40,000 nt of DNA from an uncultured Actinomycetes bacterium (GCA_963765455.1 CAVXWH010000002.1:430893-470892); one strand, 5' to 3'; positions 8,416 through 25,812 are shown, numbered from the stretch's first letter. The notes: a model not told the origin generated them from the sequence alone. Made by a program: numbers and translations.

Positions 8416-8432
8416 GCTGCCCGGACGCGGCC

Positions 8433-9817: not shown

Positions 9818-9831
9818 GATACCGTCTGTTC
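9818..9831. repeat. Left copy of the putative target-site duplication (GATACCGTCTGTTC; unambiguous core ATACCGTCTGTT)
   Basis: An identical 14-mer recurs at 25799-25812. Each copy abuts the outer end of an inverted repeat. Confidence 0.75.
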
Positions 9832-9864
9832 GGGTTAAGAGACAGGCGCCTTCGAAACGCGCAC
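9831..9864 (+). repeat. Left terminal inverted repeat
   Basis: CGGGTTAAGAGACAGGC-GCCTT-CGAAACGCGCAC compares with the reverse complement of the right end, CGGGTTAAAAGACAGGC-CAGC-CGAAACGCGCAC. The outer 17 nt have 1 mismatch, a 4-5-nt variable spacer follows, and the inner 12 nt are identical. Confidence 0.8.
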
Positions 9865-10114
9865 GGGGGGTGGCTCCTCAGTCCTCCTCGGCTATCGCAA
9901 TCGCTACGAGCACACTCGATGTTGCATCGTGACGAAGTCCGGTCTAGAGCAGGGCTCTACACTCTGGATTGTGGACGCACAAGACGTCGGGCCAGAACAG
10001 AACCCGATTACCGGACGAGAAATAACGGCGCATGCCGATGCAGCGTCCAGCGGGTTCGTCCTCGCCGACCAGCCGCTCGAGCTTTACCGGGCACTGGCGG
10101 GGTAGGATTCGCGG

Positions 10115-10702
10115 GTGGCGGTCTGGTATCTCGGGGCTCGGATAACACTTGCTGACTCCCGAAATCCAGAGCGCATTCCGCAGGCCGCTCATAGCATCCG
10201 CGAACTAATGGACGAGCTGTATGTGATTCTCGACCTGCCTTCGGAGGCCAAAGACGGCGACAATTTGGGGAATCGGTTCGAAGTAATGACCACGCGGTGG
10301 GAAAAGGCGAAAAGATTGAGCAGCGCGTGCGTCGAGGGCACTTGGTCGGGAGAGATCGACGATCCGGCGCGATTGGGTTTCGATGCTATAGATGCGGCCA
10401 TCGAGTGGCGCAGGGTCAACCGCCCGAAACGAGAGGAGACCTCGCGCGCCACGATCAGAGCGCTGGATATATCGAAGCGTGCCCTTCCGACTTGGATCGA
10501 GGACACACACGTTAAGGCGTGGAACGACCTGCGAGACTACTTCGTAAGGGTGTGCCATCACGGGCGCGAGACCGACATCGCCGAGTTCGAGGCGGCCGTA
10601 TACGAATTCGAGCGATTTGTGCTCGATCGGATGAAGCCGCGCACCTATAGGGAGCACGTGAGTCTTGAGCAACTGATCGCGGAGGCTGAAAGTGGCGCTT
10701 GA
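10115..10702 (+). CDS. Hypothetical protein (195 aa), first gene of the cargo pair
   Basis: GTG start immediately after an in-frame TAG. Its end overlaps the next gene by 11 nt. It is AT-richer than the flanking chromosome. I recognise no family. Confidence 0.6.
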   Translation: MAVWYLGARITLADSRNPERIPQAAHSIRELMDELYVILDLPSEAKDGDNLGNRFEVMTTRWEKAKRLSSACVEGTWSGEIDDPARLGFDAIDAAIEWRRVNRPKREETSRATIRALDISKRALPTWIEDTHVKAWNDLRDYFVRVCHHGRETDIAEFEAAVYEFERFVLDRMKPRTYREHVSLEQLIAEAESGA

Positions 10703-13514
10703 CCCCAAGCTTGTCGATCGTGCACTTTCTGAGGCTACGAAGCGAGCCGAGAACCTCGATTTCTTCTTCGACAACTTAAAATCGTCGGATTGGATTGAGC
10801 CCCTTCGCGCGAAAGGCTTGTTTTCGGAACCTCCTCGGCAGTACGTCGATGATGAGAGGCTTGTCCGTGCTCCCTCTTGGTCGGCGTCTCGCTATCTCGC
10901 ACGAGTCTCAGCAGTTGCGCCTCAGCTTGTGCTTGAGGTCATCGAGTCGACCGAGACCAATAACGAGCGGGTTCTAGAGGACTTCATTGATGCTGCTGTC
11001 GTAATGCCCCCCGAAGAGGCGTCGCGCATTGCCGTACTCGTAGCGGCGTGGGTTAGCGAACGCGACAATGTCTATTACGGACTCCCGAGTAAGATTGTCG
11101 ATCTAGTCGTCAAGCTAGCCCGCGACGGCCAGCCTGAAGTGGGCATTCGCCTCATGCGTTCTCTCTTCGCGCCCCAGCCCGATGAGCGCGAGCAAGTTTT
11201 ACGCTCGAGCCCGCGGGCTCGTTTTTCGGGATGGGAATATGACACTCGTCTGCGCAAGATAGTGAGCGAGGCGCTTCCGATCGCGCCGAGCTTGTTTCTC
11301 GATGCACTTGCCGAGCTACTCGCAGATGCGCTCAAGTACCTGCGTGAAATCTCCGACCGCGATAACGATGATCTTTCGCGCGTCTGGCGCGTTCACATTA
11401 GAAACGATCGTGACAGGGGAACGGAAGTCGAGGAGGCGCTTACGTCAGCTGTCCGAGACGCGGCAACCGAGATTCGGACTCGGGAGCTTATGAACGACTT
11501 CGATTTGGTAGCGCTGTTGACCGCTCGACCGGAGGAGCTATTCCGACGTATTGCAATGTACGCACTGAGCCAAGAGCCAATGGCTGACCTCGACGTGGTG
11601 TTACCGTTCGTGGTGGACGTCTCCGAGCTTATTGAGGCAGAGCCGAGCCCGGAGTTCCGCGAACTACTCAGAGCGACAGCCGAGCGACTGGATTCCGACC
11701 ATATCGAGCACCTCGTTACGGCGATCTTCGCCGGACCCGATGTCGATCAGTACCGCGAACTTGCGAAGCACTTCGATGGGGTGTGGCCCACAGACGAACA
11801 GACGAGCGCACATGTCGCACGGTGGAGGATCGGACGTCTCGCATTGATCAAGGACGCGCTGCCAGCTGAAACGCGAAGCACGTACGACGCTCTTGTTGCG
11901 GAATATGGTGAAGCTGACATCCCGCTGAGCTGGGAGATTCGTACTTTCAGTGGTCCAAACAGCCCTATCTCTGCCGACGAGCTCAGCGCGATGTCGAACG
12001 ACGAACTGATCTGCTACCTGCGCGACTGGAAACAACCTGAGGGGTTTGGAGAACCATCTGTTGAAGGGCTCGCGCGAGCGATGTCAGTCGTTGCCGAGAG
12101 GGATCCGATGCGTATTAGCCGTCTGGCACCGAGGCTGCGCGACCTCCGGCCGGCATACGTCCAGTGGATTCTTAATGGCTTCGAAGGAGCGATCAGAGAA
12201 CAGCGCAGCTTTGACTGGCCGACGCTTCTCGACATCCTTACTTGGATTGCTGAGCAGCCGCGCGAGATTCCGGGCGGGCGCGGTGACGAATACAGCGATA
12301 TCGATCCCGGCTGGGTTTGGGCGAGGCGCGAAATCGCCGGCCTCCTCGAACGCGGACTCAGCGATCGAGGCGCGTGCGCCATTCCGTTTTCGGAGCGAGA
12401 GCGCGTATGGAATGTAATCACCGCGGTGAGCGAGGATCCCGATCCGACTCCAGAGCATGAGCAGCAGTACGGAGGCCAGAACATGGACCCCGCGACGCTC
12501 GCGCTCAACACTGCACGCCCTCGCGGTCTACGTGCGGCAGTTGCGTATTCGATCTGGGTTTATCACGCGTTGCTTGGAGAGGATGAGCGCTCGATCGGAG
12601 GTTTCTTCGCGGCTCATGCGCCCGAGGCTGCGGTTCTTCTCGAGGCGCATCTCGATCCCCAAGGTGACCCATCGACTTCAGTGCGTGCTGTCTATGGGCA
12701 GTTCTTTGCCAATCTCTTCGCCGTCGATCGGGCTTGGGCGAAAAAGGTTGCCGAAACCGTGTTCCCGGACGAAGACTCAGCGCTTCGTGAAGCAGCTTGG
12801 GGTGCATACGTGATCTACACACGGCCGTACGATGACTTACTGGCCCTGCTCTGTCCTGCGTACCTACGTGCAGCCCAACACGCTCGATCTGACGGTCATG
12901 GCTTCCGATGGATGAACGGCATCCCATCGGAGAAGCTGGGCGAGCACGTCGCAGCCTTTTTTTGGCGCGGTTTGCTCAATATCGACGACCCCCTGATAAG
13001 CGTCTACTGGAACAACGCGTCCGCCGACGCTCGCGGTCACATGATCGAGTTCTTCGGGCGTTCGCTACGCGAAGCGGAGCAGCTCGATCCTGAGATCGAG
13101 AAGAGGCTTCGGGAGTTCTGGGAATTCGCGAAGCGGAACGTACGAAAGGGCGATGTCCCTACTGAGCTCGGCAGCTTTTGTTGGTGGTTCGTTGGAGACA
13201 CGCTTCCACTCGACTGGCGATTCGAGCAGATGATCATAGTGCTGAGCGAGAAAGTTCAGCCACGCGCCGCTTTTCTCGTTGCCGAGAAGCTACCGTCAGT
13301 GGCTCAACAACACCCTCTGCTCGCTGTTCGAGTTCTTCGCCTTTTGCTTCAAGATGCGGAGGTATGGTCGGTAGACGCGTGGCGCAAGGAAATCGAGTCG
13401 GTGCTCCGCATCGCCTACTCCGCCAACGGGGAGGCGCGTGATCTTGCCGAGGAGACGCTGAACTGGCTACTTGCGCTGGGCCACCGGTCTTTCCGTAACG
13501 TGGTCGAGGCTTGA
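10692..13514 (+). CDS. Large (940 aa) predicted all-alpha repeat (HEAT/ARM-like) protein of unknown function
   Basis: Long uninterrupted ORF with Leu/Ala/Glu/Arg-rich helical character throughout. I see no P-loop, nuclease or other catalytic motif. It overlaps the 195-aa gene. Confidence 0.7.
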   Translation: MALDPKLVDRALSEATKRAENLDFFFDNLKSSDWIEPLRAKGLFSEPPRQYVDDERLVRAPSWSASRYLARVSAVAPQLVLEVIESTETNNERVLEDFIDAAVVMPPEEASRIAVLVAAWVSERDNVYYGLPSKIVDLVVKLARDGQPEVGIRLMRSLFAPQPDEREQVLRSSPRARFSGWEYDTRLRKIVSEALPIAPSLFLDALAELLADALKYLREISDRDNDDLSRVWRVHIRNDRDRGTEVEEALTSAVRDAATEIRTRELMNDFDLVALLTARPEELFRRIAMYALSQEPMADLDVVLPFVVDVSELIEAEPSPEFRELLRATAERLDSDHIEHLVTAIFAGPDVDQYRELAKHFDGVWPTDEQTSAHVARWRIGRLALIKDALPAETRSTYDALVAEYGEADIPLSWEIRTFSGPNSPISADELSAMSNDELICYLRDWKQPEGFGEPSVEGLARAMSVVAERDPMRISRLAPRLRDLRPAYVQWILNGFEGAIREQRSFDWPTLLDILTWIAEQPREIPGGRGDEYSDIDPGWVWARREIAGLLERGLSDRGACAIPFSERERVWNVITAVSEDPDPTPEHEQQYGGQNMDPATLALNTARPRGLRAAVAYSIWVYHALLGEDERSIGGFFAAHAPEAAVLLEAHLDPQGDPSTSVRAVYGQFFANLFAVDRAWAKKVAETVFPDEDSALREAAWGAYVIYTRPYDDLLALLCPAYLRAAQHARSDGHGFRWMNGIPSEKLGEHVAAFFWRGLLNIDDPLISVYWNNASADARGHMIEFFGRSLREAEQLDPEIEKRLREFWEFAKRNVRKGDVPTELGSFCWWFVGDTLPLDWRFEQMIIVLSEKVQPRAAFLVAEKLPSVAQQHPLLAVRVLRLLLQDAEVWSVDAWRKEIESVLRIAYSANGEARDLAEETLNWLLALGHRSFRNVVEA

Positions 13515-13528
13515 ACGTGAACAAATCG

Positions 13529-16500
13529 TCACTGGTCATGCTCCTCTAGCCGAGTCCACTTGTGCCTCGCAGCGAGCCTCGTAAGGCAGCCGCGGGCACG
13601 CGCGTGCGGCCTCGCCCCCGCGCGAATGCGTGTCAACGTGCTCGGACTAATCCCAGCCTCGGCCGCCGTCTCCCGAACGTTCATCTCGCGCAGCACCGGC
13701 AATATGAGCGTCTCCCACTCCTCGTCGAACACGTTCCGATATTCGACTAGCACATCTCCTTCGCCGGCAATCAAGCCCGCCGCGACCTCCTCGATCAGGT
13801 TCGCCTCCTTTCCGACGTGCGTGATCGAGAGCGCGCGAACCGGTCGACGCGAGAGCAGCCCTATCGTCCGACGCCCGCACCGCTGCCCGTCTAGGGCGAG
13901 GCTCTTCGCCTCCGGCCGCACGCGATAAGCATCGAGTACGTCTCGATATGTCTTCACGCCGACGACGTCGGGCGGAAGCGCGATCCCACCCGTCTCGATC
14001 GGCGAGCGGCCGAGCCGGTATGTAGGCCCCGATGGGTCGTAGACGTTCCGCCAGGGAAGATGCTGCCATCGGCGCGGATCGGGCTCATAGGGAGCAACTA
14101 ACGCGAACCTTTTCGGATCGGTGCCGATCGGATAACCGCCTGGAGCCACGTGGGCCACGAGCAGGAATCCGTGCGGCTTGATCTGCTCGGCGTACGTCTT
14201 GCTCTCGTTCAGTCCCTTGAAGGGTCGAAGCAGGCGCGGATGCGAGGCCGAAAACTGCGAGAGCGCCGGTCGATCCAGCCAGGGCGCATCTCTCGAAGGA
14301 AAACCGAAGACGTCCGTGCGCACGATTTCCTCCCACACATCCCGCGTCCAGTCGCGTTTTCCACGCCTCTGATCCTCTTTGTCGGGATCGAGCGGATTCA
14401 GGTAGAAGCCACCCAGCGCGTGCTCCGACCACTTGACGAGCTTCGGAGCGCAGGACGAATCGAGCGTGTAGAGGCAGTAGCGCTTGGCGCTAATCGCGAA
14501 GCAGACGAGCTCGCGCTGCTCGCCGGTCTCGGGATCGAAGTTCTCGGGCTCAGCTCTCAAGATCGAGCCGGGCACAAGTGAGCGGTCATAGGGATTGAGC
14601 GCCCCGAAACGCTCCGAGATTCGACCGACCTCTTCCCAGGGAAGCGCGCGAACACATTCCTGCCCCTGCCGATCGATCTCGGGTCCGCCTGCGCAGGGAA
14701 CGAGCCCACCCTCTTTCGTTGACACGATCGCCATCGAGTCGGTGTCGCAGAAGGCGTAAGTACCGCCCGCCTCAGTCACGGAGCATTCGAGCAGGGCCAG
14801 CATTAGCCGCGCAGCTCCGGTGACGAAAGCGGCAATGGGCGAGAAGAAAAACTCCCCGGAATCCTCTACCGCTGACACCTCCGCTTCGAACTGATCGAGC
14901 CCGAAGACAGTGACCGGTGATGGCTCAGCCCGCGATTCCTGGCGATTCAGTTCGGCGAAGATGCCGTAGGAGCCCGAGTTCGCGACCGTCTTGAGGCCAT
15001 TCGCGGATCTCTCGGACTCTGGGTCGCCGAGTTGCTCGAGCCGGCGGCGCTCCTCGACCATCGCCCGGAAGACATCCTCTGTCGTTGGATCGATCGCTCT
15101 CGAGCCGCGGACGGTGAAGGGACGGATACCTGCCGCGCGCCCAACCGGCGCCAGCCGAATGCAGCGGAGGATCTTGGGCGTTTTCCCTGTGACGACGCGT
15201 GAGGTAAGCACGTCTGCGAGCGTCAGCCAGACCGGCTTGCCCGAAAAGAACGGATTGACGCCGATCCCGTAGGAGCCGCCCTCTGAGTAGCGGGCGCGCA
15301 CCGGGAGGATGTCGCCGTTCGGCTGGACGAGAACGAGCGCCGTCAGCCTTGGCCAGAGTCGCTGATCGAAGCAACTACCCAGGCTCTGCCGGAAAAGCCA
15401 GCGCTCGATCGTTACCGGGTCTTCTTCGGCGACCTTGACCCGCGCGCAGATGAGAAAGCGAGAGAGCTTCATCAGTGCGCAGACGGTCGGGTACATGCTG
15501 CGGAAGTCGAGCAGCGTAATCGGAACCGGGGTCCTCCTGATTCGACACTCGGCGCGGCCACCGAAGTAGGCGACCATGCCGTACCCGAGCACCTCCCGAG
15601 AGAAGCTCGGTTGGCGTGCAAGAAGAGGTCGGATTCCGGTCTCTCGTAGAGTTGCCTTGACGAGACTTGCCGGCGAGTAGGTCCTGGTCGGGGCTAGCTG
15701 CAGGTGCCAGCGCTCGTACTCGGTCGCGAGCGCCTGGTAGAGAGAGGCCGTCGCCGCCACATCCTCGCAGCAGTAGTCGACCAGCTCGGTGCTGATTCGT
15801 CCCAGTTCGACCTCACGCTTGACGTAGTCGATACCGAAGGCTCCACAGGCCGATTCAAGCGTGTGCGCCTTGCCGCTCAGCGCATAGGAAAGCGTACGCA
15901 GATCGAGGAACGCTCCCCGACCGCGACGCTTGGCATCGGGATCCGAGCCCGGCCGAGCGCTTCCGAGCCCGATGCGAGCACGCTTGGAGTCGAGCGAGCG
16001 GATGAGCAGCCGCGGGTGAAAGCGGCTCTCGCGCTCGTCGCCATGCTCGTCTGTCCACATCACGCTCTTAAGTGAGAAGCCGCCCTCGAAGCCTCGCGCA
16101 CGCGTCTCTCCCCAGCCGGCGGCGAGCCGGGAAAGGTCGAAGGGCAGGTTGAAGCCAACGACCGTCGCCTTTGCGCTCAGAGCTGGGATCAGGACTTTCG
16201 AGACGAGGGCTGAGCGACTGCGAAGCGAGAAGGCACGACCGGAGTCACGCACGTTTCTGTCGATCGCTGACTCGTGCTCTTCGACGTAGCGCTCGAGCAG
16301 AGCGAGTCCGTTCGGGTCGAGCGTCGGGAGGTCGTCTCCGTAGACGAGGCCCTCATCGACGCAGACAAGCTCTGGCCCAACCTCGCTCCAGCGCAAGCGG
16401 ACGTAGCGGTAGCAGGCAACGAGGAGTCTCTGTGCCGGGTCTATCGTCGTCTCGCAGTCGAGCACGAGAATCGAGTGCGGCCGGCGGGCGGGATCCTCCC

Positions 16501-16621: not shown

Positions 16622-17085
16622 GGTTTTGCCTCCGGTAGGTCTCGCCAGCTTGGGTCCTTGTGGTCGAGCGCCTCTTCGAGCGCGATCCTTTGAACCGCTT
16701 CCCGTTCTTCCGCCTCAGCGAGATCGCGGAAGAGAGCCGCACGGCTTTGACGCGCTCCCGCCTGGCGCGTGAGGACGCTACGGTCACCAGTGTGAGAGAG
16801 ATCGACGCCCTCGTCGTGTTGGTGCGCGGTTCTGATCGCGTGGCAGTTCTTGCAGAGCGGCACGACCAAGTCCGGATCGTTCGCATCGCCCGAGACGTGA
16901 TCCCCATCGATGAAGCTCCGTAGAACTGGGATCAAGACTTCGGGCGCGGTGATCCCGCAGAGGATGCAGGCAGCGTCCGGAGGTAACTTGCTTCGCTTGC
17001 GTGCACGTCGCCGATCGTTCGCTATCGGATTCGGCCCTGCGCGGCGTGAGCCCGCGGCCCGCTTGTGCGCTTGCTGGCCGCTCAT
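16618..17085 (-). CDS. HNH endonuclease
   Basis: The motif CILCG...DGDHVSGDANDPDLVVPLCKNCHAIRTAHQH is a His-Asn-His fold with flanking Cys pairs. It has ATGA overlaps with both neighbouring genes. Confidence 0.85.
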   Translation of the reverse strand: MSGQQAHKRAAGSRRAGPNPIANDRRRARKRSKLPPDAACILCGITAPEVLIPVLRSFIDGDHVSGDANDPDLVVPLCKNCHAIRTAHQHDEGVDLSHTGDRSVLTRQAGARQSRAALFRDLAEAEEREAVQRIALEEALDHKDPSWRDLPEAKP

Positions 17086-19220: not shown

Positions 19221-19226
19221 TATAAT
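19221..19226 (+). promoter_or_regulatory. Candidate -10 box (TATAAT) in the divergent intergenic region of the element
   Basis: A perfect TATAAT lies 37 nt upstream of the ATG at 19263, in the only clearly AT-richer gap between the divergent operons (19076-19262). I found no convincing -35 box. Confidence 0.3.
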
Positions 19227-19262
19227 CAGCGTGATGCGCCGGTTGATTGCAAAGTAAATGAG

Positions 19263-20360
19263 ATGACGAGCGAGCCCCTTGAGATCGATCGACGGCTAGC
19301 CGAGGCTGCATCGGAGCTTGGCGCCGCGGTCTCAGCGCGGCAGGTCAAACGCTGGCGAGAGGCCGGGCTACTACCTACGCGAAAAAAAGGGCTGGGACAA
19401 GGGCTTGGGTCGGCTCCGGCGGAGTTCTTGCCGGGCGCGGAGAAACACGCGGCCTGCCTCGCTCAAGCACTGAAAGACCGTCGCAAGCTGGATGAGGCCT
19501 GCCTCGTCTGCTTCTGGCGGGGCTTCTCTCCCAGAGAGCGCAGGCTCAAGCTTGCGTACGCCAAGCAGTTCAGGCTCCTCTCTGATTGGCTCGAGCACGT
19601 CAGTAGCGCCTCGAGTCCTCAGGCCAAGACCCAGAAGGCTGGCCGTATACTCTCGCGCCGCTCGGCCGGCCACCCAGCGGTGCAAGCGATGCGCGCGCGG
19701 CTAAAGTCAGAAGGCAAGGGGACTCCCTTCTCCAGAGTGCTCTCCAACGCTCTCGGCCCGTTGCTCGGAATCGCGAGCCCACTCCGGCGCGAGACGCTCC
19801 TGGCTTTGGGTGCCGAGGGTCTTCTCACCCCGATCGAGGACGAAGGACCGCTCGCCGAGCCGGACGATCTCCGCCTCGATTGGCTAAAGCTGTCCCGCCT
19901 CGCCGAGGCCGTCGAGAACTCCGTGTTGACCGAGCTGGAGCAGGCGCGGGACGCCTTCCGCTTTCTCTTCTCGTTCACGATCGACTTCGCGTCTCTCGCC
20001 GCGCGAGGCTACGGCCTCAAGGTCGGTCGCCTCAGAGAGTTTCTTCCCAACGAGCTGACCTGCGCGCTCTTAGGTATCCCGACGATGCTCATCTTCCGAG
20101 CGCTCTGGGGCAAGGAGCATCTCGACAGTCGCATCGAGGAGCTTCGCCGCCTGTATCCGCAAGTTCAGGCTCAAAACCGTTTTCTCGACGCGCTTCCGAG
20201 TAAGTGGCATCCGTTCGCCGCCCCGAACGGCTCCATCCGGCTTGCCGCCGCACCCGACGACGAGCGCCAAGCGCTCGTCGAGTTCGTTCAGGAGTGGGCG
20301 GCCGAGCATCCCGAAGACGTAGCCCTAATCACTGAAACGCAAGAGGTGAACGAGACCTAG
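19263..20360 (+). CDS. Hypothetical protein with an N-terminal MerR/excisionase-like HTH
   Basis: I prefer ATG 19263 (MTSEPLEIDRR...) over the track start at 19212. The N-terminal segment VSARQVKRWREAGLLP resembles MerR/Xis-type HTHs. The rest has no recognisable motif. Confidence 0.6.
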   Translation: MTSEPLEIDRRLAEAASELGAAVSARQVKRWREAGLLPTRKKGLGQGLGSAPAEFLPGAEKHAACLAQALKDRRKLDEACLVCFWRGFSPRERRLKLAYAKQFRLLSDWLEHVSSASSPQAKTQKAGRILSRRSAGHPAVQAMRARLKSEGKGTPFSRVLSNALGPLLGIASPLRRETLLALGAEGLLTPIEDEGPLAEPDDLRLDWLKLSRLAEAVENSVLTELEQARDAFRFLFSFTIDFASLAARGYGLKVGRLREFLPNELTCALLGIPTMLIFRALWGKEHLDSRIEELRRLYPQVQAQNRFLDALPSKWHPFAAPNGSIRLAAAPDDERQALVEFVQEWAAEHPEDVALITETQEVNET

Positions 20361-20430
20361 ATAGGAACAAGAAGCCCCCGCGACTGCTCTAACAGCCCGG
20401 GGGCGTGGCACACGGAAAGGATGTTTCCGC

Positions 20431-20799
20431 ATGCAACTCAAAGGTAACGAAGTCCAGGTCGCCTGGCGCGTTCTTCGCTTCATCCTCATCTGCGTCGTGT
20501 CGGCGCTCGTTCTCGGGACAGCGCTCGTCTTCTCGCTCTTTTCCGCCCTGACATCGGGATCTCGCGGTAGGAGGAGCCACCCTGAACTGATCGTGGCCGC
20601 AGCGCTTGCCATCGTGTATGCGCTCTGGCGGAGACGAGACGCTGGCTGGCATGCCTGCGGCCAGTGCGGCGTCCCGATCGAGCCACCCTCAAGAGTGGAG
20701 TACTGCTCGCCGAGCTGTCGCCGCTACGCCCGGCTCCAGCGGGAAGCGTTCGATCGTCGGGCTGAGACTCTCGCCTCCTATGGGGAGGTGCCGTTCTGA
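20431..20799 (+). CDS. Small two-pass membrane protein with a C-terminal FCS-like zinc ribbon
   Basis: Two hydrophobic helices are followed by CGQCGVPIEPPSRVEYCSPSCRRY. Its TGA overlaps the Cas1 ATG by 1 nt (TGATG). Confidence 0.6.
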   Translation: MQLKGNEVQVAWRVLRFILICVVSALVLGTALVFSLFSALTSGSRGRRSHPELIVAAALAIVYALWRRRDAGWHACGQCGVPIEPPSRVEYCSPSCRRYARLQREAFDRRAETLASYGEVPF

Positions 20800-22178
20800 T
20801 GGCGACTTCGATAGATCGCGCCAGGGAAGCCGAGCGCGACCACAGCTCCGTTCCTGCGCAGCTCCGTAGACGCGGGAGCGCCACCGTTGTCGATGGCTTC
20901 GGAGCAGTGCTTCAGGTCGAGCGCGGACGACTCGTCGTCTTGGACGGCGCAGGTAGAGAGAGAAGGGAACGAAACTTCGGCCGGGTCGGAGACTCGATCG
21001 CTCGGGTGGTCGTGCTCGGCGGGACGGGCTCGATCTCGCTCGCAGCGCTTCGCTGGCTTGCCGACCAGGGGATCCCCCTGCTTGCGCTCGATCGCGAGAG
21101 CCGCCTGCTCTGCGTCTCCGTCCCTCCAGCGACGAGCGATGCGCGGTTGCGAAGGGCGCAAGCGCTTGCAGCAACGAATGAGGCGGGGCTCGAGATTGCG
21201 CGTTATCTACTGTGCGAGAAGCTCCGCGGTCAGCGCGAAGTGCTGCTCACGCTCAACCCAGACGAGAGATTAGTCAGCGCCTTCAACCGGGCTTTCCGTT
21301 GGCTGGAAGCGACCACCGACACGAACGAGCTGATGATGGCCGAGCGGGACGCCGCGCTCGCCTACTGGACAGGGTGGAGAGATGTCGAGATCAGTTTCCG
21401 TAAATCGGATGCCGGCCTCGTGCCGCTGTATTGGCGCAGTTTCGGAAAGCGCATTTCACCGCTTACTACGGGACCTCGGCTCGCCGCGAACCCGATCAAC
21501 GCGATCCTGAACTACCTCTACGCAATTCTCGAAGCCGAGACTCGCATCGCTCTTCTCACCGTCGGGCTCGATCCCGTGCTCGGGATCGTCCATGCCGACT
21601 ACAGAGGCAGAGACTCATTCGCGCTCGACGTGATGGAGGCCGCACGGCCGAAGGTCGACGCCTTCGTCCTTCAGCTACTCAGACGCAGGACTTTCAGAGC
21701 CGGCGACTTCTTTGAGACGAGAAAGGGCGCTTGTCGCCTACTTCGCCCATTCACCCATGAGCTGGTGCGAACAGCGCCCGTGTGGGCCGAGCTGGTCGCG
21801 CCGGTTTGCGAGCAGGTAGCGAAGACGCTCGCCGAGGTGCCGGGCTCACGGGTCAAGCGAGTCCTGACTCCGCTGACTCGGTCGAACCACGTCGAGGCCA
21901 GAGAAGCGATACGAAGGCGACCTCGGTCGCAGCTCCGCCTGCCGCTCCCGGAGAAGGTCTGCAAGAACTGTGGCGGGGAGCTTCCGAGACGCGAGCGCGT
22001 CTACTGCGATGCTTGCTACTCGCAGCTCGACTTCCACACGAAGAAGCGTTGTAAGCGCTGCGGCGGAAGGGTTCCGAACCGGAAGCGGGTGTACTGCGAT
22101 TCGTGTCTCGCCGATCACCCGCGCAAGCGGCGTATTCAAGCGGGGGATTGTCAGTGCAGTAGAAAGCCCCGGCTATGA
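20799..22178 (+). CDS. cas1: Cas1-family integrase (putative casposase) with two C-terminal zinc ribbons
   Basis: The N-terminal beta-domain pattern is VVLGGTGSISLAALRWLADQGIPLLALD. The catalytic core is MAERDAALAYW...ANPINAILNYLYAILEAETRIALLTVGLDPVLGIVHADYRGRDSFALDVMEAARPKVD, giving the Cas1 Glu/His/Asp-Glu pattern. The C-terminus carries CKNCGGELPRRERVYCDACY and CKRCGGRVPNRKRVYCDSC. Confidence 0.9.
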   Translation: MATSIDRAREAERDHSSVPAQLRRRGSATVVDGFGAVLQVERGRLVVLDGAGRERRERNFGRVGDSIARVVVLGGTGSISLAALRWLADQGIPLLALDRESRLLCVSVPPATSDARLRRAQALAATNEAGLEIARYLLCEKLRGQREVLLTLNPDERLVSAFNRAFRWLEATTDTNELMMAERDAALAYWTGWRDVEISFRKSDAGLVPLYWRSFGKRISPLTTGPRLAANPINAILNYLYAILEAETRIALLTVGLDPVLGIVHADYRGRDSFALDVMEAARPKVDAFVLQLLRRRTFRAGDFFETRKGACRLLRPFTHELVRTAPVWAELVAPVCEQVAKTLAEVPGSRVKRVLTPLTRSNHVEAREAIRRRPRSQLRLPLPEKVCKNCGGELPRRERVYCDACYSQLDFHTKKRCKRCGGRVPNRKRVYCDSCLADHPRKRRIQAGDCQCSRKPRL

Positions 22179-23159
22179 GCCGAAGGAATCGAAGCTGTCT
22201 CCAGAGTCGATAGCCGTTGCTCCCTTACCTTTGTCGTGCGGAACGCCGACTGTGACTGTTTTCTCGCACGTGCCACCGCGACCGTCGTCAGCCGTGACGT
22301 GGAGGCGGTAGACGCGACCGTCACCTGAGCCGTCTCTTTCGGCTCGGAGCTGGACGGTGTCGCTCGTCACTCCCTTGACGGCGTCCGGAGAAATGTCGCC
22401 ATCGCCAGTCCCGTTCACCGGCTCGTCTTGGGTCACGGAGTCGATCGTCAGCGTGACACTGTCTCCGTCGGGGTCAGTCGCGCCCGAGACCTGGACCATT
22501 ACCAGCTTGTGGTTAGCGGGCCAGAGAGTCGAAGGCGAGGCGGACACGCCACTACAGTCAGGCGGTTGGTCGAGGGCGACCTCGCTGGTAGAGAGCGAAT
22601 AGGTTCCGATCTCCCCCGATTCGCTCTTCCAGAAGACAAGGTCTCCCTTGAAGCCGGTGATTGTTATCTCGCCCGTGCCAGGGACATCTGCCGTTGAGCT
22701 CGACGTACTCTCGTTCGAGAAATTCGTGTCCTGCCGGATGAAACGGCCAGTATCCAGATCTTCATCGTCCGCACCTGCAGTTACGTCGGTTTCGACTTCT
22801 CCGTCCGCCTGCTGATAGGCGCTTGTTGCTTCGATGTTGTCGTAGGACGATCTGTAATCGGAGTCGAGGCCTAATGTCACTACGCGAGGAGCGAAACTCG
22901 GCCACGTTTCTGCCGGCGCCGGGTACTCGACGGTGCTGGTGTCAGTGCCAGAAGGGAACGCATCTTCCAGAGCTTGCTGGAAGCTCAAAGGAACCGTCTC
23001 ACCGAGAATCGTGTCGTAGACGGGAGTATTGGGATCATTCGTGTCCGCTAGCGTCAGGCCAGCGCCGACCCCGGCGATCACTAAAAACGCGGCCACGGCG
23101 ATTCCCGCGCTAGAGCGAGTGCGTTTCAGCATCTTGATTAACGTTCTCATAGCTACCAC
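22173..23159 (-). CDS. Secreted or anchored protein with a C-terminal LWPxNHK-type beta-sandwich domain
   Basis: N-terminal signal/anchor AGIAVAAFLVIAGVGAG. The C-terminus reads PSTLWPANHKLVMVQVSGATDPDGDSVTLTIDSVTQDEP...LRAERDGSGDGRVYRLHVTADDGRGG. Its 3' end overlaps the Cas1 3' end by 6 nt in convergent orientation. Confidence 0.65.
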   Translation of the reverse strand: MVAMRTLIKMLKRTRSSAGIAVAAFLVIAGVGAGLTLADTNDPNTPVYDTILGETVPLSFQQALEDAFPSGTDTSTVEYPAPAETWPSFAPRVVTLGLDSDYRSSYDNIEATSAYQQADGEVETDVTAGADDEDLDTGRFIRQDTNFSNESTSSSTADVPGTGEITITGFKGDLVFWKSESGEIGTYSLSTSEVALDQPPDCSGVSASPSTLWPANHKLVMVQVSGATDPDGDSVTLTIDSVTQDEPVNGTGDGDISPDAVKGVTSDTVQLRAERDGSGDGRVYRLHVTADDGRGGTCEKTVTVGVPHDKGKGATAIDSGDSFDSFGS

Positions 23160-25519
23160 TCCCCTGCAGCCGGCGGTGAGGGGAAATCCTGCTCGCTCTT
23201 CGTATGTGTCACGGTCTTCGCTTGAAAATAAGATGGTATCTTACTCAATCCCATATCTTTCCACCAGGTTTCCCACGAAGTATAAGGGGTCATGGCTGTT
23301 CCATCCGAATTGAACAGGCAGGCGACGAAGATTCGAGATCCGTTGTTATAAAGCGCTCCGGAGTAATTTGGGTTCGTTAACTTCTCTAGAGCCACCCAGT
23401 TAGAGATTTGCGTGCTCGTATAGGCCTGTGGGCAGATGAAAGAAACGTTAGGCGGACGGGAAAGATTAACTACATTTCTTCCTGTCCAATCTTGGGTGTC
23501 AACCGTCCTTGTGTCAGTCGGCCCCGAACATTCCGTGTCCGTTGCGCAACTCGGAGAGATTATCAGGGACCCGTAGTTAATACTTGGAGACAAATATGGC
23601 CAGTCAAAGAGAGTGTTGAAAACATTAAATCCATCCACAACCGCCTTCGTAACAGCGTACGAGCTATACCCTTCTAAATCGAAACGCCATTTACAATTGC
23701 GAAGTGTGGTATTCGTACAATTACGCACTTTGTTTACTTCCTCGATATCAAAGCCTGCAGCTAATCTCACGTTATCGGCAAACGGTTGGGTAGTGAGCCA
23801 TGAGTTAAGCTCCGCGATCTTCAACGCGAACATCATACCGGCGTAAGATGCGAGGCTCGGGTTTTGATTCCAAGCCGAAGGAAAAGCGTTATTGATCCCC
23901 CAAGTGATGAGAACAGATCCCTTGCCAGCCGCTTTATGTCCGTTGTGGTAACCCTTTATGTACTGCTGAAAATCGTTGATGATCGTCGAATAGGGAGTCG
24001 TCCCCTGCGATAAATCGATTATTTTACTACCGTCGGCGTTCGGAGTGCCAGTAGAAAGAACAACGACAGCGTTTTTTATCCCGCGTGCGCCTAACTGCTT
24101 CCCCTGCCGGAAGAAAAGGCCCGAGTTACCCAAGTATTTCTCGTAATAACTCGTCGTGATCTGTGGCATCGGCGGAACCTTGACGGTCACTGAGGCCGCA
24201 TTGGATTGAAGCGGCCCGAGAGTTGCCGTAATGGTGTCGGTTCCCTCAGCGCTAGCGTAGTACGAGAATGTCGCGGTTCCATCGGACCCGAGCAGGACGT
24301 CTTGCTGAAGATCGTCAGCGCCCTGGACGGTGACTGTGGCAGGTTGTCCATTTGCGAGCGAGGGGTCGCTCAACGTGAGATTGGCCGTGACCGTATCCGC
24401 GACCGAAACCTCGTCCGAGTCGGTCGCCACTGTGAGAGTCGCCGGAGGCGCCGTACAGTCGGTGGCCGTCGGTCCCTGGGTGAGCTCGCAGTTGACCCAG
24501 CCCGTCGTCTCTAGATCGGAGCCGATGGCAGTGCGGGCGGCGTCCAGATCCCAGTTGAGCGCAGTGACCTGCGTGGCGCTGTAGTCGGGGTTGTCGAGCT
24601 CGGCGTATGGTCGCGCGGAGGACACCGCGACGGGGTCGTTCGGGATCGCCGAGCCGTCCATCCAGCGCGCGTACCAGGTGGGCGGCGGAGGCAAGGTTCC
24701 GCTCCACCCGCCGGGATCGCACGCGAACTGACCTCCTGAACTAACAGAGGGATACGGCCCGAACCACACATACGTGTTGGGGGTGTCGCACCAGTAGTTG
24801 GAGGGCCAGGAGGAGACCATTCCCCTATCCATAGCCTGGAGCCTCTCGGAAATGGTGTCCCAGGTCGCTTGACTTATTCCATAATCGCCGAGGCCACCGA
24901 ACAGCAGGCTGGCAGTGAAACCGTCGTACCAGGACGAGTCGTCGGTACCCCGGAAGGTGAGCGCCCAGATCGGGTTGCCGCCGTTCACGGTCGCGGTGAA
25001 GTTAGCGCCCGACCATTGAAAGGAGGGTGGTGTCCCGGTGTAGAGACCTAGGTGACCGTTTGGGTCGTACTGCCAGTACGCAGAGCCCGACAGGTCGTGG
25101 CCGGTAGTGAAGGGCGCGACCGTGCCGAGACCTGTGCCCATGGTGATCGCATAGACCGGATAGTCGCTTTGGCTTGCGTCTGCGACGGCCCAGCTCCAGC
25201 TGTCCTCCGTATCCGTCTTGACGGTGAGTTGCCCACCGTTGATGGTTTTCGGGTCGGGCAGGCCGGCTTTGAGCGCCGCCAGCCTGGCGTCACCAAGCAC
25301 GTTTTGGATGCCCTGGGGCGCGCCATTTTCCGCATCCTGCCAGACCGCCTGGTCCTGCACGACCTGGAGCAGCTTGCTTGCGTAGGAGGGATCTAGGTAG
25401 GGAGCAGTCGCGCCGCTCGAGTCGGCCGAGGCGCTCGAAAGCAGACACGCAAAGACGATCAAGCCGACAGCGATCGCAAGCGGCAGGCGGAGGCGGGGGA
25501 CGGCGCGCATCGCAGGCAC
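23153..25519 (-). CDS. Large secreted protein (788 aa) of unknown function with an Ig-like segment
   Basis: Signal peptide LRLPLAIAVGLIVFACLLSSASA. An Ig-like stretch reads TVTANLTLSDPSLANGQPATVTVQGA...DTITATLGPLQSNAASVTV. AGGAG lies 7-8 nt before the ATG. The 3' half is markedly AT-rich. Confidence 0.7.
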   Translation of the reverse strand: MPAMRAVPRLRLPLAIAVGLIVFACLLSSASADSSGATAPYLDPSYASKLLQVVQDQAVWQDAENGAPQGIQNVLGDARLAALKAGLPDPKTINGGQLTVKTDTEDSWSWAVADASQSDYPVYAITMGTGLGTVAPFTTGHDLSGSAYWQYDPNGHLGLYTGTPPSFQWSGANFTATVNGGNPIWALTFRGTDDSSWYDGFTASLLFGGLGDYGISQATWDTISERLQAMDRGMVSSWPSNYWCDTPNTYVWFGPYPSVSSGGQFACDPGGWSGTLPPPPTWYARWMDGSAIPNDPVAVSSARPYAELDNPDYSATQVTALNWDLDAARTAIGSDLETTGWVNCELTQGPTATDCTAPPATLTVATDSDEVSVADTVTANLTLSDPSLANGQPATVTVQGADDLQQDVLLGSDGTATFSYYASAEGTDTITATLGPLQSNAASVTVKVPPMPQITTSYYEKYLGNSGLFFRQGKQLGARGIKNAVVVLSTGTPNADGSKIIDLSQGTTPYSTIINDFQQYIKGYHNGHKAAGKGSVLITWGINNAFPSAWNQNPSLASYAGMMFALKIAELNSWLTTQPFADNVRLAAGFDIEEVNKVRNCTNTTLRNCKWRFDLEGYSSYAVTKAVVDGFNVFNTLFDWPYLSPSINYGSLIISPSCATDTECSGPTDTRTVDTQDWTGRNVVNLSRPPNVSFICPQAYTSTQISNWVALEKLTNPNYSGALYNNGSRIFVACLFNSDGTAMTPYTSWETWWKDMGLSKIPSYFQAKTVTHTKSEQDFPSPPAAGEW

Positions 25520-25766
25520 TCCTAATTAGGTTGGGGGAAACCAGGTGTCCAAAGGCAAACTCGTAGACCGAAACTAGGGATCCGTCTATACGAAGTCAAG
25601 CTTCGAGCGCTAAAACCCCTCGTGACGGGCGCTGATATCCCTCACCAGGGGGATAAACGCAAGCCTACTTCCAGAACTAAGGCTGACTTTGCGCTGAGAT
25701 AGCCGACCATCTGTCACCCATGCGGCTCGTTTCGATCGACGGTTTTTCTTTTCGGGCGGGCAACTT

Positions 25767-25799
25767 GTGCGCGTTTCGGCTGGCCTGTCTTTTAACCCG
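25767..25799 (-). repeat. Right terminal inverted repeat
   Basis: GTGCGCGTTTCGGCTGGCCTGTCTTTTAACCCG is the inverted partner of 9831-9864. Confidence 0.8.
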
Positions 25800-25812
25800 A
25801 TACCGTCTGTTC
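25799..25812. repeat. Right copy of the putative target-site duplication (GATACCGTCTGTTC)
   Basis: Identical to 9818-9831 and immediately outside the right TIR. Confidence 0.75.

What the first reader, a model, noticed from the sequence alone, without database searches (positions are those of the whole stretch)
9818..25812. Casposon-like element: stand-alone Cas1 plus family-B polymerase in a ~16-kb insertion with TIRs and a target-site duplication
**What the sequence shows**
- A Cas1 homologue (20799-22178) with the conserved Glu/His/Asp core sits in a window that has no Cas2, no Cas4 and no CRISPR array.
- About 4 kb away lies a 1030-aa PolB carrying every Exo I-III and Pol A/B/C motif. It is in an operon with an HNH nuclease, an HTH protein and an orphan methyltransferase.
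- The block is bounded by ~34-bp inverted repeats, and these are flanked by an identical 14-mer.
- It interrupts the spacer between two convergent chromosomal genes (Nramp and GH16).
- It contains no tyrosine or serine recombinase and no virion genes.

**Comparison with published work**
- Cas1 plus PolB plus TIR plus TSD is the defining architecture of casposons.
- From memory, published casposase integration gives 14-15-bp duplications. The 12-14 bp seen here is close to that.
- From memory, most characterised casposons are archaeal and bacterial ones are few and poorly studied.

**Inference**
- The Zn-ribbon casposase, the gene order and the cargo all look unusual for a casposon.
Basis: partly seen in the sequence, partly recalled or inferred. 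Interest (0 to 1): 0.92.

Follow-up and report, generated by a model that had tools for sequence, protein, structure and literature searches.

The report
Recently mobile bacterial casposon in Gaiellaceae
This is a 16-kb self-replicating DNA transposon (a casposon) that uses a relative of the CRISPR enzyme Cas1 to insert itself. It sits in a soil actinobacterium, and a near-identical genome from another sample has the exact empty site, so it is a well-documented new member of a known but little-studied class.

Summary
Window 9832-25798 (15,967 bp) is a discrete insertion. It has imperfect terminal inverted repeats of 33/32 nt (27 matches) and a perfect 14-bp target-site duplication, GATACCGTCTGTTC.

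- **Empty site:** Nramp and GH16 are adjacent there.
- **Core genes:** a Cas1-family casposase with an intact catalytic set; its best structural match is the M. mazei casposase, 6OPM. A PolB has all six motifs and a C-terminal HTH, followed by an HNH nuclease, a probable HTH protein and an N6/N4 methyltransferase.
- **Absent:** CRISPR array, cas2, cas4 and any other integrase.
- **Host:** Gaiellaceae.
- **Classification:** core gene order, Zn-finger casposase, 14-bp duplication and GGG termini match published bacterial "family 3" casposons (AceAut-C1, NitAL212-C1). The cargo includes a Dsr1-like defence gene.
- **Verdict:** new member of a known kind.

Beyond the brief:
- The family is large, with 921 clusters at E<=1e-30.
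- In complete relatives the duplication is uniformly 14 bp.
- Most relatives insert exactly at the -35 box of sigma-70-type promoters.
- The window's clade uses a different motif, CCACCCGCC...RTAYCG.
- One relative (L031) carries a type I-C CRISPR interference module plus an array.

The parts
9793..9801 (+). CCACCCGCC box in the host flank, 16 nt before the TSD. Candidate leader-like target determinant; not part of the element.
   Evidence: The composite CCACCCGCC-N(8-30)-RTAYCG occurs in the loci then held (about 2 Mb) only at the three independent target sites of this clade: the window's empty site, L096-98 and L115. Its function is inferred.
9818..9831 (.). Left copy of the 14-bp target-site duplication, GATACCGTCTGTTC
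   Evidence: A single copy is present in the empty site, L009 10938-10951.
9832..9864 (+). Left terminal inverted repeat, GGGTTAAGAGACAGGCGCCTTCGAAACGCGCAC
   Evidence: The GGG terminus and the internal CGAAAC box are shared with relatives.
10115..10702 (+). Cargo ORF, 195 aa, function unknown. Overlaps the next gene by 11 nt.
   Evidence: Called as a gene in two assemblies. Only a sub-threshold pP_pnuc_1 hit, E 0.015.
10692..13514 (+). Cargo gene, 940 aa, similar to the C-terminal two-thirds of the anti-phage protein Dsr1. No SIR2 domain detected.
   Evidence: PADLOC Dsr1 E 3.8e-31, residues 211-811 against profile positions 530-1094 of 1227. NCBIfam Dsr1 E 2e-17, far below its cut-off.
13529..16621 (-). 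Family B DNA polymerase, 1030 aa, with a C-terminal HTH
   Evidence: All Exo I-III and Pol A/B/C motifs read directly. PF03175 E 2e-6 and HTH_28 at 973-1000, E 0.007. The C-terminal HTH resembles the casposase C-terminal HTH of a relative (BLASTP E 0.002). Orthologues lie next to Cas1 in 53 of 80 genome loci.
16618..17085 (-). HNH endonuclease, 155 aa
   Evidence: PHROG HNH families at E 2e-5 to 1e-3. Motif C40xxC43...D62H63...N69...C78xxC81H82 read. No Pfam match.
17082..17684 (-). Conserved 200-aa core protein, probable HTH DNA-binding protein
   Evidence: Homologues sit at the same position in about 40 related loci. HTH_20 is only E 0.14. The AF2 model has pLDDT 70 and gives no significant fold match. 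A published casposon has an 'HTH protein' in this slot.
17681..19036 (-). N6/N4 DNA methyltransferase, 451 aa as called (the ORF runs to 19075). No partner nuclease was found.
   Evidence: PF01555 E 2.5e-22, phrog_498 E 7e-41, PADLOC MTase_II.
19428..20360 (+). 310-aa protein of unknown function, upstream of the casposase operon (the ORF may start at 19212)
   Evidence: Gene call. No family match.
20431..20799 (+). 122-aa predicted membrane protein with a C-terminal CxxC...CxxxC zinc-ribbon-like motif. Its stop overlaps the casposase start.
   Evidence: Sequence. It is 94% identical in the second casposon of the same genome, although the two Cas1 proteins are only 72% identical. Similarity to the casposase Zn ribbon is not significant.
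20799..22178 (+). Casposase: Cas1 domain (about residues 26-360) plus two C-terminal zinc ribbons, no HTH
   Evidence: PF01867 E 1.7e-45 and PF18912. Catalytic E247/H265/D277/E280. AF2 model pLDDT 79.6, best PDB match 6OPM casposase at E 3.4e-19.
22173..23150 (-). Cargo gene, 325 aa, hydrophobic signal- or anchor-like N-terminus, function unknown
   Evidence: Gene call. Only sub-threshold Ig-like hints.
23153..25510 (-). Cargo gene, 785 aa, signal-like N-terminus, contains the low-G+C stretch, function unknown
   Evidence: Gene call. G+C is 49.5% at 23-24 kb. No family match.
25767..25798 (-). Right terminal inverted repeat. Its reverse complement reads GGGTTAAAAGACAGGCCAGCCGAAACGCGCAC.
25799..25812 (.). 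Right copy of the 14-bp target-site duplication
   Evidence: An independent short-read contig (L002) spans this junction at 100% identity.

Best explanation
Window 9832-25798 is an intact casposon of the bacterial 'family 3' type, integrated in the chromosome of an uncultured Gaiellaceae bacterium.

**Shown**
- It is a discrete 15,967-bp insertion with TIRs and a 14-bp TSD.
- It is present in two assemblies of this population and absent from a third.
- It encodes the full casposon core.

**Inferred from solved and assayed archaeal casposases**
- The Cas1-type casposase binds the two GGG-ended TIRs.
- It joins their 3'-OH ends to the two target strands at positions staggered by 14 bp.
- Gap repair then produces the duplication.
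- PolB, with the HNH nuclease and the HTH protein, copies or processes the element; this is why such elements are called 'self-synthesizing'.

**Inferred from comparison of relatives**
- Target choice is sequence-directed.
- This clade of casposases has zinc ribbons only. It uses sites with RTAYCG at one edge of the duplicated 14-mer and, in the three Zn-only members, a CCACCCGCC box 15-28 nt outside it.

The two arms of the element carry exchangeable cargo: a Dsr1-like defence gene, an orphan methyltransferase and two probably secreted proteins.
For: **Boundaries and empty site**
- Alignment of the empty allele to the window breaks exactly at 9831 and 25799, with a 14-nt overlap. The sequence was read directly.
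- The predicted 27-mer is present in L006, L009 and L122.
- Both junctions are present in a second assembly.

**Core proteins**
- The casposase model is closest to 6OPM, 'Casposase bound to integration product' (E 3.4e-19, TM 0.77), ahead of CRISPR Cas1 4N06.

**No rival machinery**
- No CRISPR array, cas2, cas4 or other recombinase was found.

**Family context**
- 137 relatives were found in species-representative genomes. PolB is adjacent in 53 of the 80 loci fetched.
- 26 complete elements were first mapped, all with a 14-bp TSD and mostly GGG termini; L096 and L115 were added later.

**Match to published family 3**
- NitAL212-C1 has a 14-bp TSD and a TIR starting GGGGTATG.
- AceAut-C1 has PolB-HTH, HNH, an HTH protein and Cas1-Zf.
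- All known bacterial casposons are intergenic.

**Target motif and specificity**
- The composite target motif occurs only at the sites used.
- Target class follows the Cas1 tree.

**Host**
- The trigger factor is 84% identical to Gaiellaceae MAG proteins.
Against: - No biochemical or read-level evidence of transposition is available. The empty allele could simply be ancestral.
- The TIRs are imperfect (27 of 33 columns), whereas many relatives have perfect ones.
- Placement in the family 3 clade could not be tested with clean reference sequences. Only machine-read N-terminal fragments of AceAut-C1 and StrAlb-C1 were available (41% and 31.5% identity).
- A database search with those fragments found nothing.
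- PolB matches only PF03175 weakly and has no sequence match in the PDB. Its primer type is therefore unknown.
- The HNH and HTH assignments fall below Pfam thresholds.
- The proposed target motif rests on three (bipartite) to five (RTAYCG) sites.
Confidence: 0.9

Rival explanations
1. It is a casposon by descent but is now immobile. On this view it is a fixed island kept for its cargo, and the empty allele is merely the ancestral state in a sister lineage.
For: - The TIRs are imperfect.
- The copy in a second assembly (L003) has broken PolB and methyltransferase reading frames.
- Only three genomes of this population were sampled.
- No excised or circular form was seen.
Against: - All core reading frames and catalytic motifs are intact in the window.
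- Outside two recombined patches, the element is identical between the two occupied genomes over about 12 kb. The flanks of occupied and empty genomes are 99.2-100% identical, so the insertion is young.
- The frame breaks in L003 coincide with gaps of the kind long-read assemblies produce.
- Two further related casposons are present in the same samples.
Confidence: 0.2
2. The element moves by some other means, such as host recombination or an unrecognised transposase among the unannotated ORFs. Cas1 would then be a passenger with another role, for example defence or regulation.
For: Five ORFs have no assignable function: 195, 310, 122, 325 and 785 aa. No assay was possible.
Against: - A 14-bp staggered duplication with TIRs is the signature of casposase chemistry. 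In vitro, the A. boonei enzyme gives 14-15 bp.
- Across dozens of relatives with entirely different cargo, Cas1 recurs with PolB and the p200-like protein, while the unannotated ORFs do not.
- Target class tracks the Cas1 phylogeny.
- No recombinase or transposase profile matched.
Confidence: 0.04
3. It is the remnant of a CRISPR-Cas locus, or an assembly chimera, rather than a mobile element.
For: Cas1 matches generic CRISPR Cas1 models, and public sources label its relatives 'CRISPR-associated endonuclease Cas1'.
Against: - There is no array, cas2 or cas4.
- The same junctions occur in independent assemblies, and one junction occurs in a short-read contig.
- The empty site is precise.
- CRISPR Cas1 proteins on plasmids are at most 33% identical with E about 1e-13, whereas PolB-linked relatives score above 400 bits.
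Confidence: 0.01

Closest known systems
[quoted passage not shown] 2014, PMC4046053)
   Same: - It has the same core block: PolB with a C-terminal HTH, HNH, an HTH protein, and a Cas1 with a C-terminal zinc finger.
- It is intergenic, with a 15-bp TSD against 14 bp here.
- The machine-read N-terminal 99 residues of its Cas1 are 41% identical to the window's protein, E 7e-11.
- Its cargo includes a pfam14338 (Mrr_N) protein and a Cdc6-like ATPase. Relatives L096 and L115 carry similar genes.
   Different: - AceAut-C1 Cas1 is described as having a zinc-binding domain plus an HTH. The window's casposase has two zinc ribbons and no HTH.
- Its TIRs are 602 bp, against about 33 bp here.
- The window adds a methyltransferase, a 310-aa protein and a 122-aa membrane zinc-ribbon protein between the two core blocks.
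NitAL212-C1, family 3 casposon of Nitrosomonas sp. AL212
   Same: It has a 14-bp TSD, a 36-bp TIR starting GGGGTATG, a size of 14.4 kb, an intergenic position and a PolB-HTH. The GGG(G)TA terminus is shared by most of the relatives mapped here.
   Different: - Its Cas1 has an N-terminal zinc-binding domain and a C-terminal HTH.
- Its host is a betaproteobacterium.
Family 2 archaeal casposons: AciBoo-C1 (A. boonei) and MetMaz-C1 (M. mazei; casposase structure 6OPM)
   Same: - The Cas1 fold matches; 6OPM is the best structural match.
- The duplication is 14-15 bp.
- The core genes are PolB-HTH, HNH and HTH.
- The target has two parts: the duplicated segment plus an adjacent 'leader-like' segment of about 18 bp in A. 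boonei. The CCACCCGCC box plus RTAYCG found here is comparable.
- Mobility was inferred from presence or absence among strains and then shown in vivo.
   Different: - The hosts are archaea.
- Their targets are often the 3' ends of tRNA genes.
- The casposase carries a C-terminal HTH.
- Sequence identity to 6OPM is only 22-23%.
CRISPR adaptation module (Cas1-Cas2 integrase)
   Same: It has the same catalytic domain and the same residues. The chemistry is the same: staggered integration that duplicates a fixed-length segment next to a recognition sequence.
   Different: - There is no Cas2, no array and no effector genes in the window.
- What gets inserted is the 16-kb element itself, not a spacer.

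Membership tests
Casposon superfamily | Cas1-family integrase with the catalytic residues intact | tested here: met
   PF01867 E 1.7e-45. E247, H265, D277 and E280 align with 4N06 and are invariant in 16 relatives. Best fold match is the casposase 6OPM.
Casposon superfamily | Family B DNA polymerase encoded in the same element | tested here: met
   1030-aa ORF with all six Exo and Pol motifs. PF03175 at 27.3 bits, cut-off 25.8.
Casposon superfamily | Terminal inverted repeats at both ends | tested here: met
   33/32-nt TIRs with 27 matches. The terminal 16-mer is found only at the two ends, against 0.01 expected.
Casposon superfamily | Target-site duplication flanking the TIRs, verified against an unoccupied site | tested here: met
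   Perfect 14-bp TSD. A single copy is present in the empty allele of a genome 99-100% identical in the flanks.
Casposon superfamily | No tyrosine or serine recombinase and no conventional transposase | tested here: met
   No such match in Pfam, NCBIfam, PHROGs or PADLOC for any element ORF. Five ORFs remain unannotated.
Casposon superfamily | Cas1 not associated with a CRISPR array or other cas genes | tested here: met
   No array in the window. Neighbouring genes are housekeeping genes.
Casposon superfamily | The casposase integrates TIR-ended DNA | not testable with these tools
   Requires purified protein or an in vivo mini-element assay.
Family 3 (bacterial) casposons | Bacterial host and intergenic insertion | tested here: met
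   Host is Gaiellaceae by trigger factor. The insertion lies between convergent Nramp and GH16. Published rule.
Family 3 (bacterial) casposons | [quoted passage not shown] | tested here: met
   The order and overlapping stop/start codons match AceAut-C1 Table S2. The PolB C-terminal HTH is weak. HNH is supported by PHROG plus the motif. The HTH of the 200-aa protein is only sub-threshold.
Family 3 (bacterial) casposons | Cas1 falls in the family 3 clade of the casposase tree | tested here: inconclusive
   No clean reference sequences could be obtained. Machine-read N-terminal fragments of AceAut-C1 and StrAlb-C1 match the window (E 7e-11 and 5e-6), while the A. boonei fragment matches only two other loci weakly (E about 2e-4) and not the window. 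Relatives occur in Streptomyces, the genus of StrAlb-C1. A search with the fragments returned nothing.
Family 3 (bacterial) casposons | PolB of the type related to RNA-primed archaeal PolB rather than the protein-primed type | tested here: inconclusive
   The only profile match is PF03175, the 'organellar and viral' family, at 27 bits. There is no PDB sequence match. The PolB is orthologous at 25-56% identity to the PolBs beside Cas1 in related loci, including Streptomyces.
CRISPR-Cas adaptation module | cas1 adjacent to cas2 and a CRISPR array | tested here: not met
Pipolins and other PolB-encoding integrative elements | Tyrosine recombinase and long direct repeats (att sites), often at a tRNA gene | tested here: not met
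   No recombinase was found. The ends are inverted repeats with a 14-bp duplication. There is no tRNA gene at the site.

The most novel reading that the evidence does not exclude
The window's element may be a living representative of a large, currently active family of bacterial casposons.

- **Size and range:** roughly 900 clusters at 50% identity, spread across Actinomycetota, Acidobacteriota, Chloroflexota, Gemmatimonadota and Eremiobacterota.
- **How targets are chosen:** the casposases appear to read a short motif at one edge of a fixed 14-bp duplicated segment, plus the adjoining flank.
- **Main clades:** that target is a sigma-70-type promoter, cut right after the -35 TTGAC so that the duplication rebuilds the promoter.
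- **The window's clade:** the casposase has lost its HTH and multiplied its zinc ribbon, and the target has switched to CCACCCGCC...RTAYCG.
- **Cargo:** the family shuttles defence genes, in one case (L031) a whole type I-C interference module with a CRISPR array, where the casposase is the only Cas1.

If this is real and unpublished, it gives natural bacterial examples of leader-proximal, promoter-linked Cas1 integration. It also gives an example of a Cas1 transposon physically joined to a CRISPR effector module. These are the two steps postulated for the origin of CRISPR-Cas.
Probability: 0.35. Interest if true: 0.85.

Novelty: new member of a known kind. Interest (0 to 1): 0.6.

Why it matters
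**Why this element is useful**
- In the papers read, the 2014 and 2016 censuses list about eight bacterial casposons, and a 2023 review adds none.
- I found no biochemical study of a bacterial casposase. Published work says little is known outside family 2 (abstract of PMC8464041).
- In those papers, evidence that casposons move came only from Methanosarcina.
- This element supplies a complete, intact bacterial casposon with both alleles, a defined 14-bp duplication and a candidate two-part target motif. That is a ready design for the first in vitro test of a bacterial casposase.

**What the comparison adds at family level**
- Bacterial casposons are common in soil bacteria.
- They carry anti-phage genes as cargo.
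- They choose targets in a way that follows the casposase phylogeny.

Tried and rejected
- **Reference-based phylogeny.** The only family 3 Cas1 sequences available were machine-read figure text with obvious row errors. A database search with the AceAut and StrAlb fragments found nothing. I therefore used fragment-to-locus tblastn only and built a neighbour-joining tree of the new elements without outgroups.
- **Plasmids and viral contigs as vehicles.** No casposase-like Cas1 and no PolB relative was found on 72,556 plasmids or in IMG/VR.
- **JGI metagenome scan.** It gave only 14 loci, one of them close.
- **The 200-aa protein.** The single-sequence AF2 model (pLDDT 70) gave no significant fold match.
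- **Ends of the second and third casposons (L013, L094).** They were not found within +/-10 kb.
- **Promoter at the window's own target.** The scan found none, and Rfam found no RNA there. The duplicated 14-mer ends in TATC followed by TT, which is a TAnnnT-like hexamer, and three of the four other class B sites do likewise. I do not treat this as established.
- **Donor of the two divergent patches.** No donor was identified among the fetched paralogues; the best identity was 85-91%.
- **Spacers of the L031 array.** They match none of the fetched loci.
- **Rejected idea: the HTH alone determines the TTGAC target.** L015 and L017 keep the HTH but use the RTAYCG class of target.

Full report
**Observation**

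The window holds a 14-bp direct repeat, GATACCGTCTGTTC, at 9818-9831 and 25799-25812. These are its only two copies; 0.01 are expected by chance.

Immediately inside the repeats lie inverted repeats. The left one is GGGTTAAGAGACAGGCGCCTTCGAAACGCGCAC (9832-9864). The right one is the reverse complement of 25767-25798. They share 27 matching positions in 33 columns, with one indel. The terminal 16-mer occurs nowhere else in the window.

G+C falls from 66-69% in the flanks to 58-64% inside, with a 49.5% trough at 23-24 kb.

**Empty site and source**

The window matches ENA assembly ERZ25039480 contig_59841, 1.65 Mb. Exact-protein look-ups of the flanking ClpP, GH16 and Nramp genes found two other large contigs from related samples.

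- **ERZ25039512 contig_35970** carries the same element at the same site, with both junctions present.
- **ERZ25039473 contig_11863** has GH16 directly next to Nramp.

BLASTN of this contig against the window is 99.93-100% identical on the left and 99.2% on the right. The alignment breaks exactly at 9831 and 25799, with a 14-nt overlap. A short-read contig from another run spans the right junction at 100% identity.

The element is therefore 9832-25798 (15,967 bp). It is a true insertion polymorphism among near-identical genomes. It is neither a dispersed repeat nor an assembly artefact.

**Genes**

| Coordinates | Product | Main evidence |
|---|---|---|
| 20799-22178 (+) | Cas1-family casposase with C-terminal double zinc ribbon | PF01867 E 1.7e-45; PF18912 |
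| 13529-16621 (-) | PolB, 1030 aa, weak C-terminal HTH | six motifs; PF03175 27 bits |
| 16618-17085 (-) | HNH nuclease, 155 aa | PHROG E 2e-5; motif |
| 17082-17684 (-) | 200-aa protein, probable HTH | HTH_20 E 0.14 |
| 17681-19036 (-) | N6/N4 methyltransferase | PF01555 E 2.5e-22 |
| 19428-20360 (+) | 310-aa protein, unknown | no match |
| 20431-20799 (+) | 122-aa membrane protein with zinc-ribbon-like C-terminus | sequence |
| 10115-10702 (+) | cargo, 195 aa, unknown | gene call |
| 10692-13514 (+) | cargo, 940 aa, Dsr1-like | PADLOC E 3.8e-31 |
| 22173-23150 (-) | cargo, 325 aa, signal-like N-terminus | no match |
| 23153-25510 (-) | cargo, 785 aa, signal-like N-terminus | no match |

- **Casposase.** E247, H265, D277 and E280 align with the catalytic residues of A. 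fulgidus Cas1 and are invariant in relatives. An AlphaFold model built on 16 sequences has pLDDT 79.6. It is closest to 6OPM, the M. mazei casposase bound to its integration product (E 3.4e-19, TM 0.77), just ahead of CRISPR Cas1 structures.
- **PolB.** It has ExoI DCE, ExoII NLPFD, ExoIII YCCED, PolA DFRSMYPT, PolB KTVANSGSYG and PolC CDTDS. It matches only PF03175 among Pfam families and nothing in the PDB by sequence.
- **Operon.** PolB is followed, with 4-nt overlaps, by the HNH nuclease, the 200-aa protein and the methyltransferase.
- **HNH.** It shows a visible CxxC...DH...N...CxxCH motif but no Pfam match.
- **200-aa protein.** Its model gave no significant fold match.
- **Upstream of the casposase.** The stop codon of the 122-aa gene overlaps the casposase start.
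- **Cargo.** The Dsr1-like protein matches the C-terminal two-thirds of Dsr1 and has no SIR2 domain. The two large proteins with signal-like N-termini match no family.
- **Not found.** No CRISPR array was detected. No cas2, cas4, recombinase or virion-type match was found in the element or in the Pfam lists of the called flanking genes.

**Host**

The neighbouring trigger factor is 84% identical to proteins labelled 'MAG: trigger factor [Gaiellaceae bacterium]'. The host is an uncultured member of the Gaiellaceae (Actinomycetota).

**Comparison with known casposons**

Krupovic et al. 2014 and 2016 define casposons by Cas1 plus PolB, TIRs, a TSD and the absence of another integrase. In those papers:
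- Bacterial elements form family 3, and about eight are listed.
- All of them are intergenic.
- AceAut-C1 encodes PolB-HTH, HNH, an HTH protein and 'Cas1-Zf'.
- NitAL212-C1 has a 14-bp TSD and a TIR starting GGGGTATG.
- Methyltransferases, Sir2-like proteins and abortive-infection genes are listed as cargo.

The window's element matches this description point by point. Its gene order, zinc-finger casposase and cargo are therefore typical, not unusual.

What differs is modest. The casposase of this subclade has two or three zinc ribbons and no C-terminal HTH. Most relatives have one ribbon plus an HTH. PolB keeps an HTH that resembles the casposase HTH of those relatives.

A clean phylogeny against reference casposases could not be made, because only machine-read fragments were available. 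Fragments of AceAut-C1 and StrAlb-C1 match the window (41% identity at E 7e-11; 31.5% at E 5e-6). The A. boonei fragment gives only two weak matches to other loci and none to the window.

**Family context**

- The protein has more than 2,400 homologues in the word-indexed search; the best 120 score at least 405 bits.
- It matches 921 clusters at E<=1e-30 among 1.84 billion representatives.
- A scan of species-representative genomes confirmed 137 relatives. They come from Gaiellaceae, other Actinomycetota (including Streptomyces and Saccharopolyspora), Acidobacteriota, Chloroflexota, Gemmatimonadota and Eremiobacterota.
- In 53 of the 80 loci fetched, a PolB orthologue lies divergently upstream of Cas1. 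It is usually accompanied by homologues of the 200-aa protein and often of the HNH protein.
- An unbiased search for identical k-mers flanking inverted repeats found 26 complete elements, the window included. Two more, L096 and L115, were added later. All have a 14-bp duplication in the chosen register, and their termini mostly start with GGG.
- The same samples hold two further related casposons with the same core and different cargo: L013 (Cas1 74% identical) and L094.
- Cargo in relatives is mostly defence-like. It includes ApeA/HEPN, Mrr_N, Abi_C, a Type ISP restriction enzyme, HxsD plus radical-SAM genes, and NERD.

**Target choice**

In 17 of the first 26 elements the duplicated 14-mer ends in TTGAC.
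- In 12 of these 17, a TAnnnT hexamer follows at a spacing of 16-18 nt; the other five show near matches.
- Shuffled flanks give a mean of 0.35 and a maximum of 3. The opposite flank gives 1.
- Among all TTGAC sites in the loci, only 1.4-2.6% have such a hexamer.
- The independent promoter scan calls a sigma-70-type promoter exactly at the junction in the three loci tested.

These casposons therefore insert right after the -35 box, and the duplication leaves an intact promoter beside the element. The genes downstream differ between loci:
- lexA, with an SOS box;
- a radical-SAM gene behind a GAAC-N7-GAAC box, in three genomes;
- a tRNA-Leu gene, kinases and transporters.

The window belongs to a monophyletic clade with a different target. 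Its five sites read GATACCG, GATACCG, AGTACCG, AGTACCG and CATATCG at one edge of the duplication. The three members with zinc ribbons only also have CCACCCGCC 15-28 nt outside that edge. This composite motif occurs in about 2 Mb of fetched loci only at those target sites. The layout resembles the 'duplicated segment plus adjacent 18-bp leader-like segment' that the A. boonei casposase requires. No canonical promoter or known RNA lies at the window's own site.

**Mechanism**

*Shown:* a precise 14-bp staggered insertion of a TIR-ended element that encodes an intact Cas1-type enzyme. Cas1, PolB and the p200-like protein recur across relatives, and target class follows the Cas1 tree.

*Inferred from the solved casposase-DNA complex and in vitro and in vivo work on archaeal casposons:*
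- The casposase binds both TIRs.
- It attacks the two target strands 14 bp apart.
- Repair fills the gaps.
- PolB, HNH and the HTH protein serve replication or end processing.

It remains open whether the element is copied or cut out, what primes PolB, and what the 310-aa and 122-aa proteins do.

**Verdict**

The claim of unusual architecture is not.

The element is a new, intact and recently mobile member of the bacterial (family 3-type) casposons. Its practical value is that it offers both alleles and a candidate target motif for the first biochemical test of a bacterial casposase.

The family-level patterns go beyond the element itself. They are the uniform 14-bp duplication, insertion at the -35 box, a target class that follows the Cas1 tree (with a zinc-ribbon-only subclade inside the RTAYCG class), defence cargo, and one member with a CRISPR interference module. 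They deserve a systematic census.

Noticed in passing
L031 369-13784 (MAG Terriglobia bacterium SRVP_12, JAIQEY010000065.1): This related 13.4-kb casposon has perfect TIRs and the 14-bp TSD AAATCCCATTTGAC. Right after its casposase it carries Cas5 (7578-8186), Cas8c-like (8176-9885), Cas7 (9800-10726) and Cas3 (10710-12917). A CRISPR array follows at 13106-13468: six copies of GTCGCGCCCTACGCGGGCGCGTGAATTGAAAC with 33-36-nt spacers. The element has no cas2, no cas4 and no second cas1. It is thus a Cas1 transposon joined to a type I-C interference module, and I found no report of this in the papers searched. The spacers match none of the fetched loci.
   Followed up: partly
L018, L021, L024, L031, L033, L036, L042, L045, L048, L049, L060, L061, L062, L066, L071, L082, L092 (junction coordinates): In 17 of the first 26 complete relatives the 14-bp duplication ends in TTGAC. 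A TAnnnT-like hexamer follows 16-18 nt later. Insertion is therefore exactly at the -35 box of a sigma-70-type promoter, and it occurs in either orientation.
   Followed up: yes
L082 (lexA), L031/L036/L049 (radical-SAM SplB-like gene), L096 (uvrA): Several target promoters belong to DNA-damage genes. The lexA promoter has a CGAACACATGTTCG box, and three Acidobacteriota sites have GAAC-N7-GAA(C/A/T) just after the -10 hexamer. The L096 element sits 31 nt upstream of the uvrA start codon. This may be chance or a real preference.
   Followed up: no
L013 (ERZ25039480 contig_45598) and L012; L094 (ERZ25039512 contig_42420): The same samples hold two further related casposons (Cas1 74% identical). 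They share the core order but carry different cargo: an MTase-Mrr fusion and a second HNH in one, and HxsD plus two radical-SAM genes, NERD and RNase_T in the other. Their ends were not found within the 10-kb flanks.
   Followed up: partly
window 14000-15500 and 20000-22000 compared with L003: The two occupied genomes differ in the element almost only in two patches: 86 mismatches in PolB and about 60 in the region from the 310-aa gene's 3' end to Cas1. Most of the rest, including the cargo, shows almost no mismatches. This points to recombination with another casposon. The donor is not among the fetched paralogues.
   Followed up: partly
window 20431-20799 compared with L012/L013 9549-9917: The 122-aa membrane zinc-ribbon protein is 94% identical between the two co-resident casposons, although their Cas1 proteins are only 72-74% identical.
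   Followed up: no
L066 (10.7 kb), L076 (6.1 kb), L090 (6.8 kb), L092 (5.3 kb): These short elements have the family's TIRs and 14-bp duplication but a truncated Cas1 and no PolB. They are probably non-autonomous deletion derivatives.
   Followed up: no
right flanks of L024, L036, L045, L048, L082: Directly beyond the duplication lies another TIR-like sequence starting GGG(G)(A/T)A. This suggests tandem or adjacent casposons, or solo TIRs, at the same target, as described for Methanosarcina.
   Followed up: no
window 25813-25830, also present in the empty allele (L009): The host sequence just after the duplication, AGGCTACGAAACGCACGC, resembles the element's own TIR (GGGTTA...CGAAACGCGCAC) with the middle 15 nt missing. 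L096 has CGAAAACGCGCC at a similar place. This could be a relic of an older insertion, part of target recognition, or chance.
   Followed up: no
L013 2922-3032 and 13143-13253: An inverted repeat of 111 nt at 86% identity. One arm lies inside the 3' end of the PolB gene and the other lies downstream of a cargo HNH gene. It is unexplained.
   Followed up: partly
window 33178-33328: A tandem repeat with a 60-nt period (30-nt sub-period), 2.5 copies, 90% matches. It is head-to-tail without spacers, so it is not a CRISPR array.
   Followed up: no
window 35250-37400: Alignment to the empty-site genome breaks up and drops to 90-98% identity around tRNA-Arg (35415-35490) and tRNA-Leu (36744-36828). 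This is a second variable spot between these genomes.
   Followed up: no
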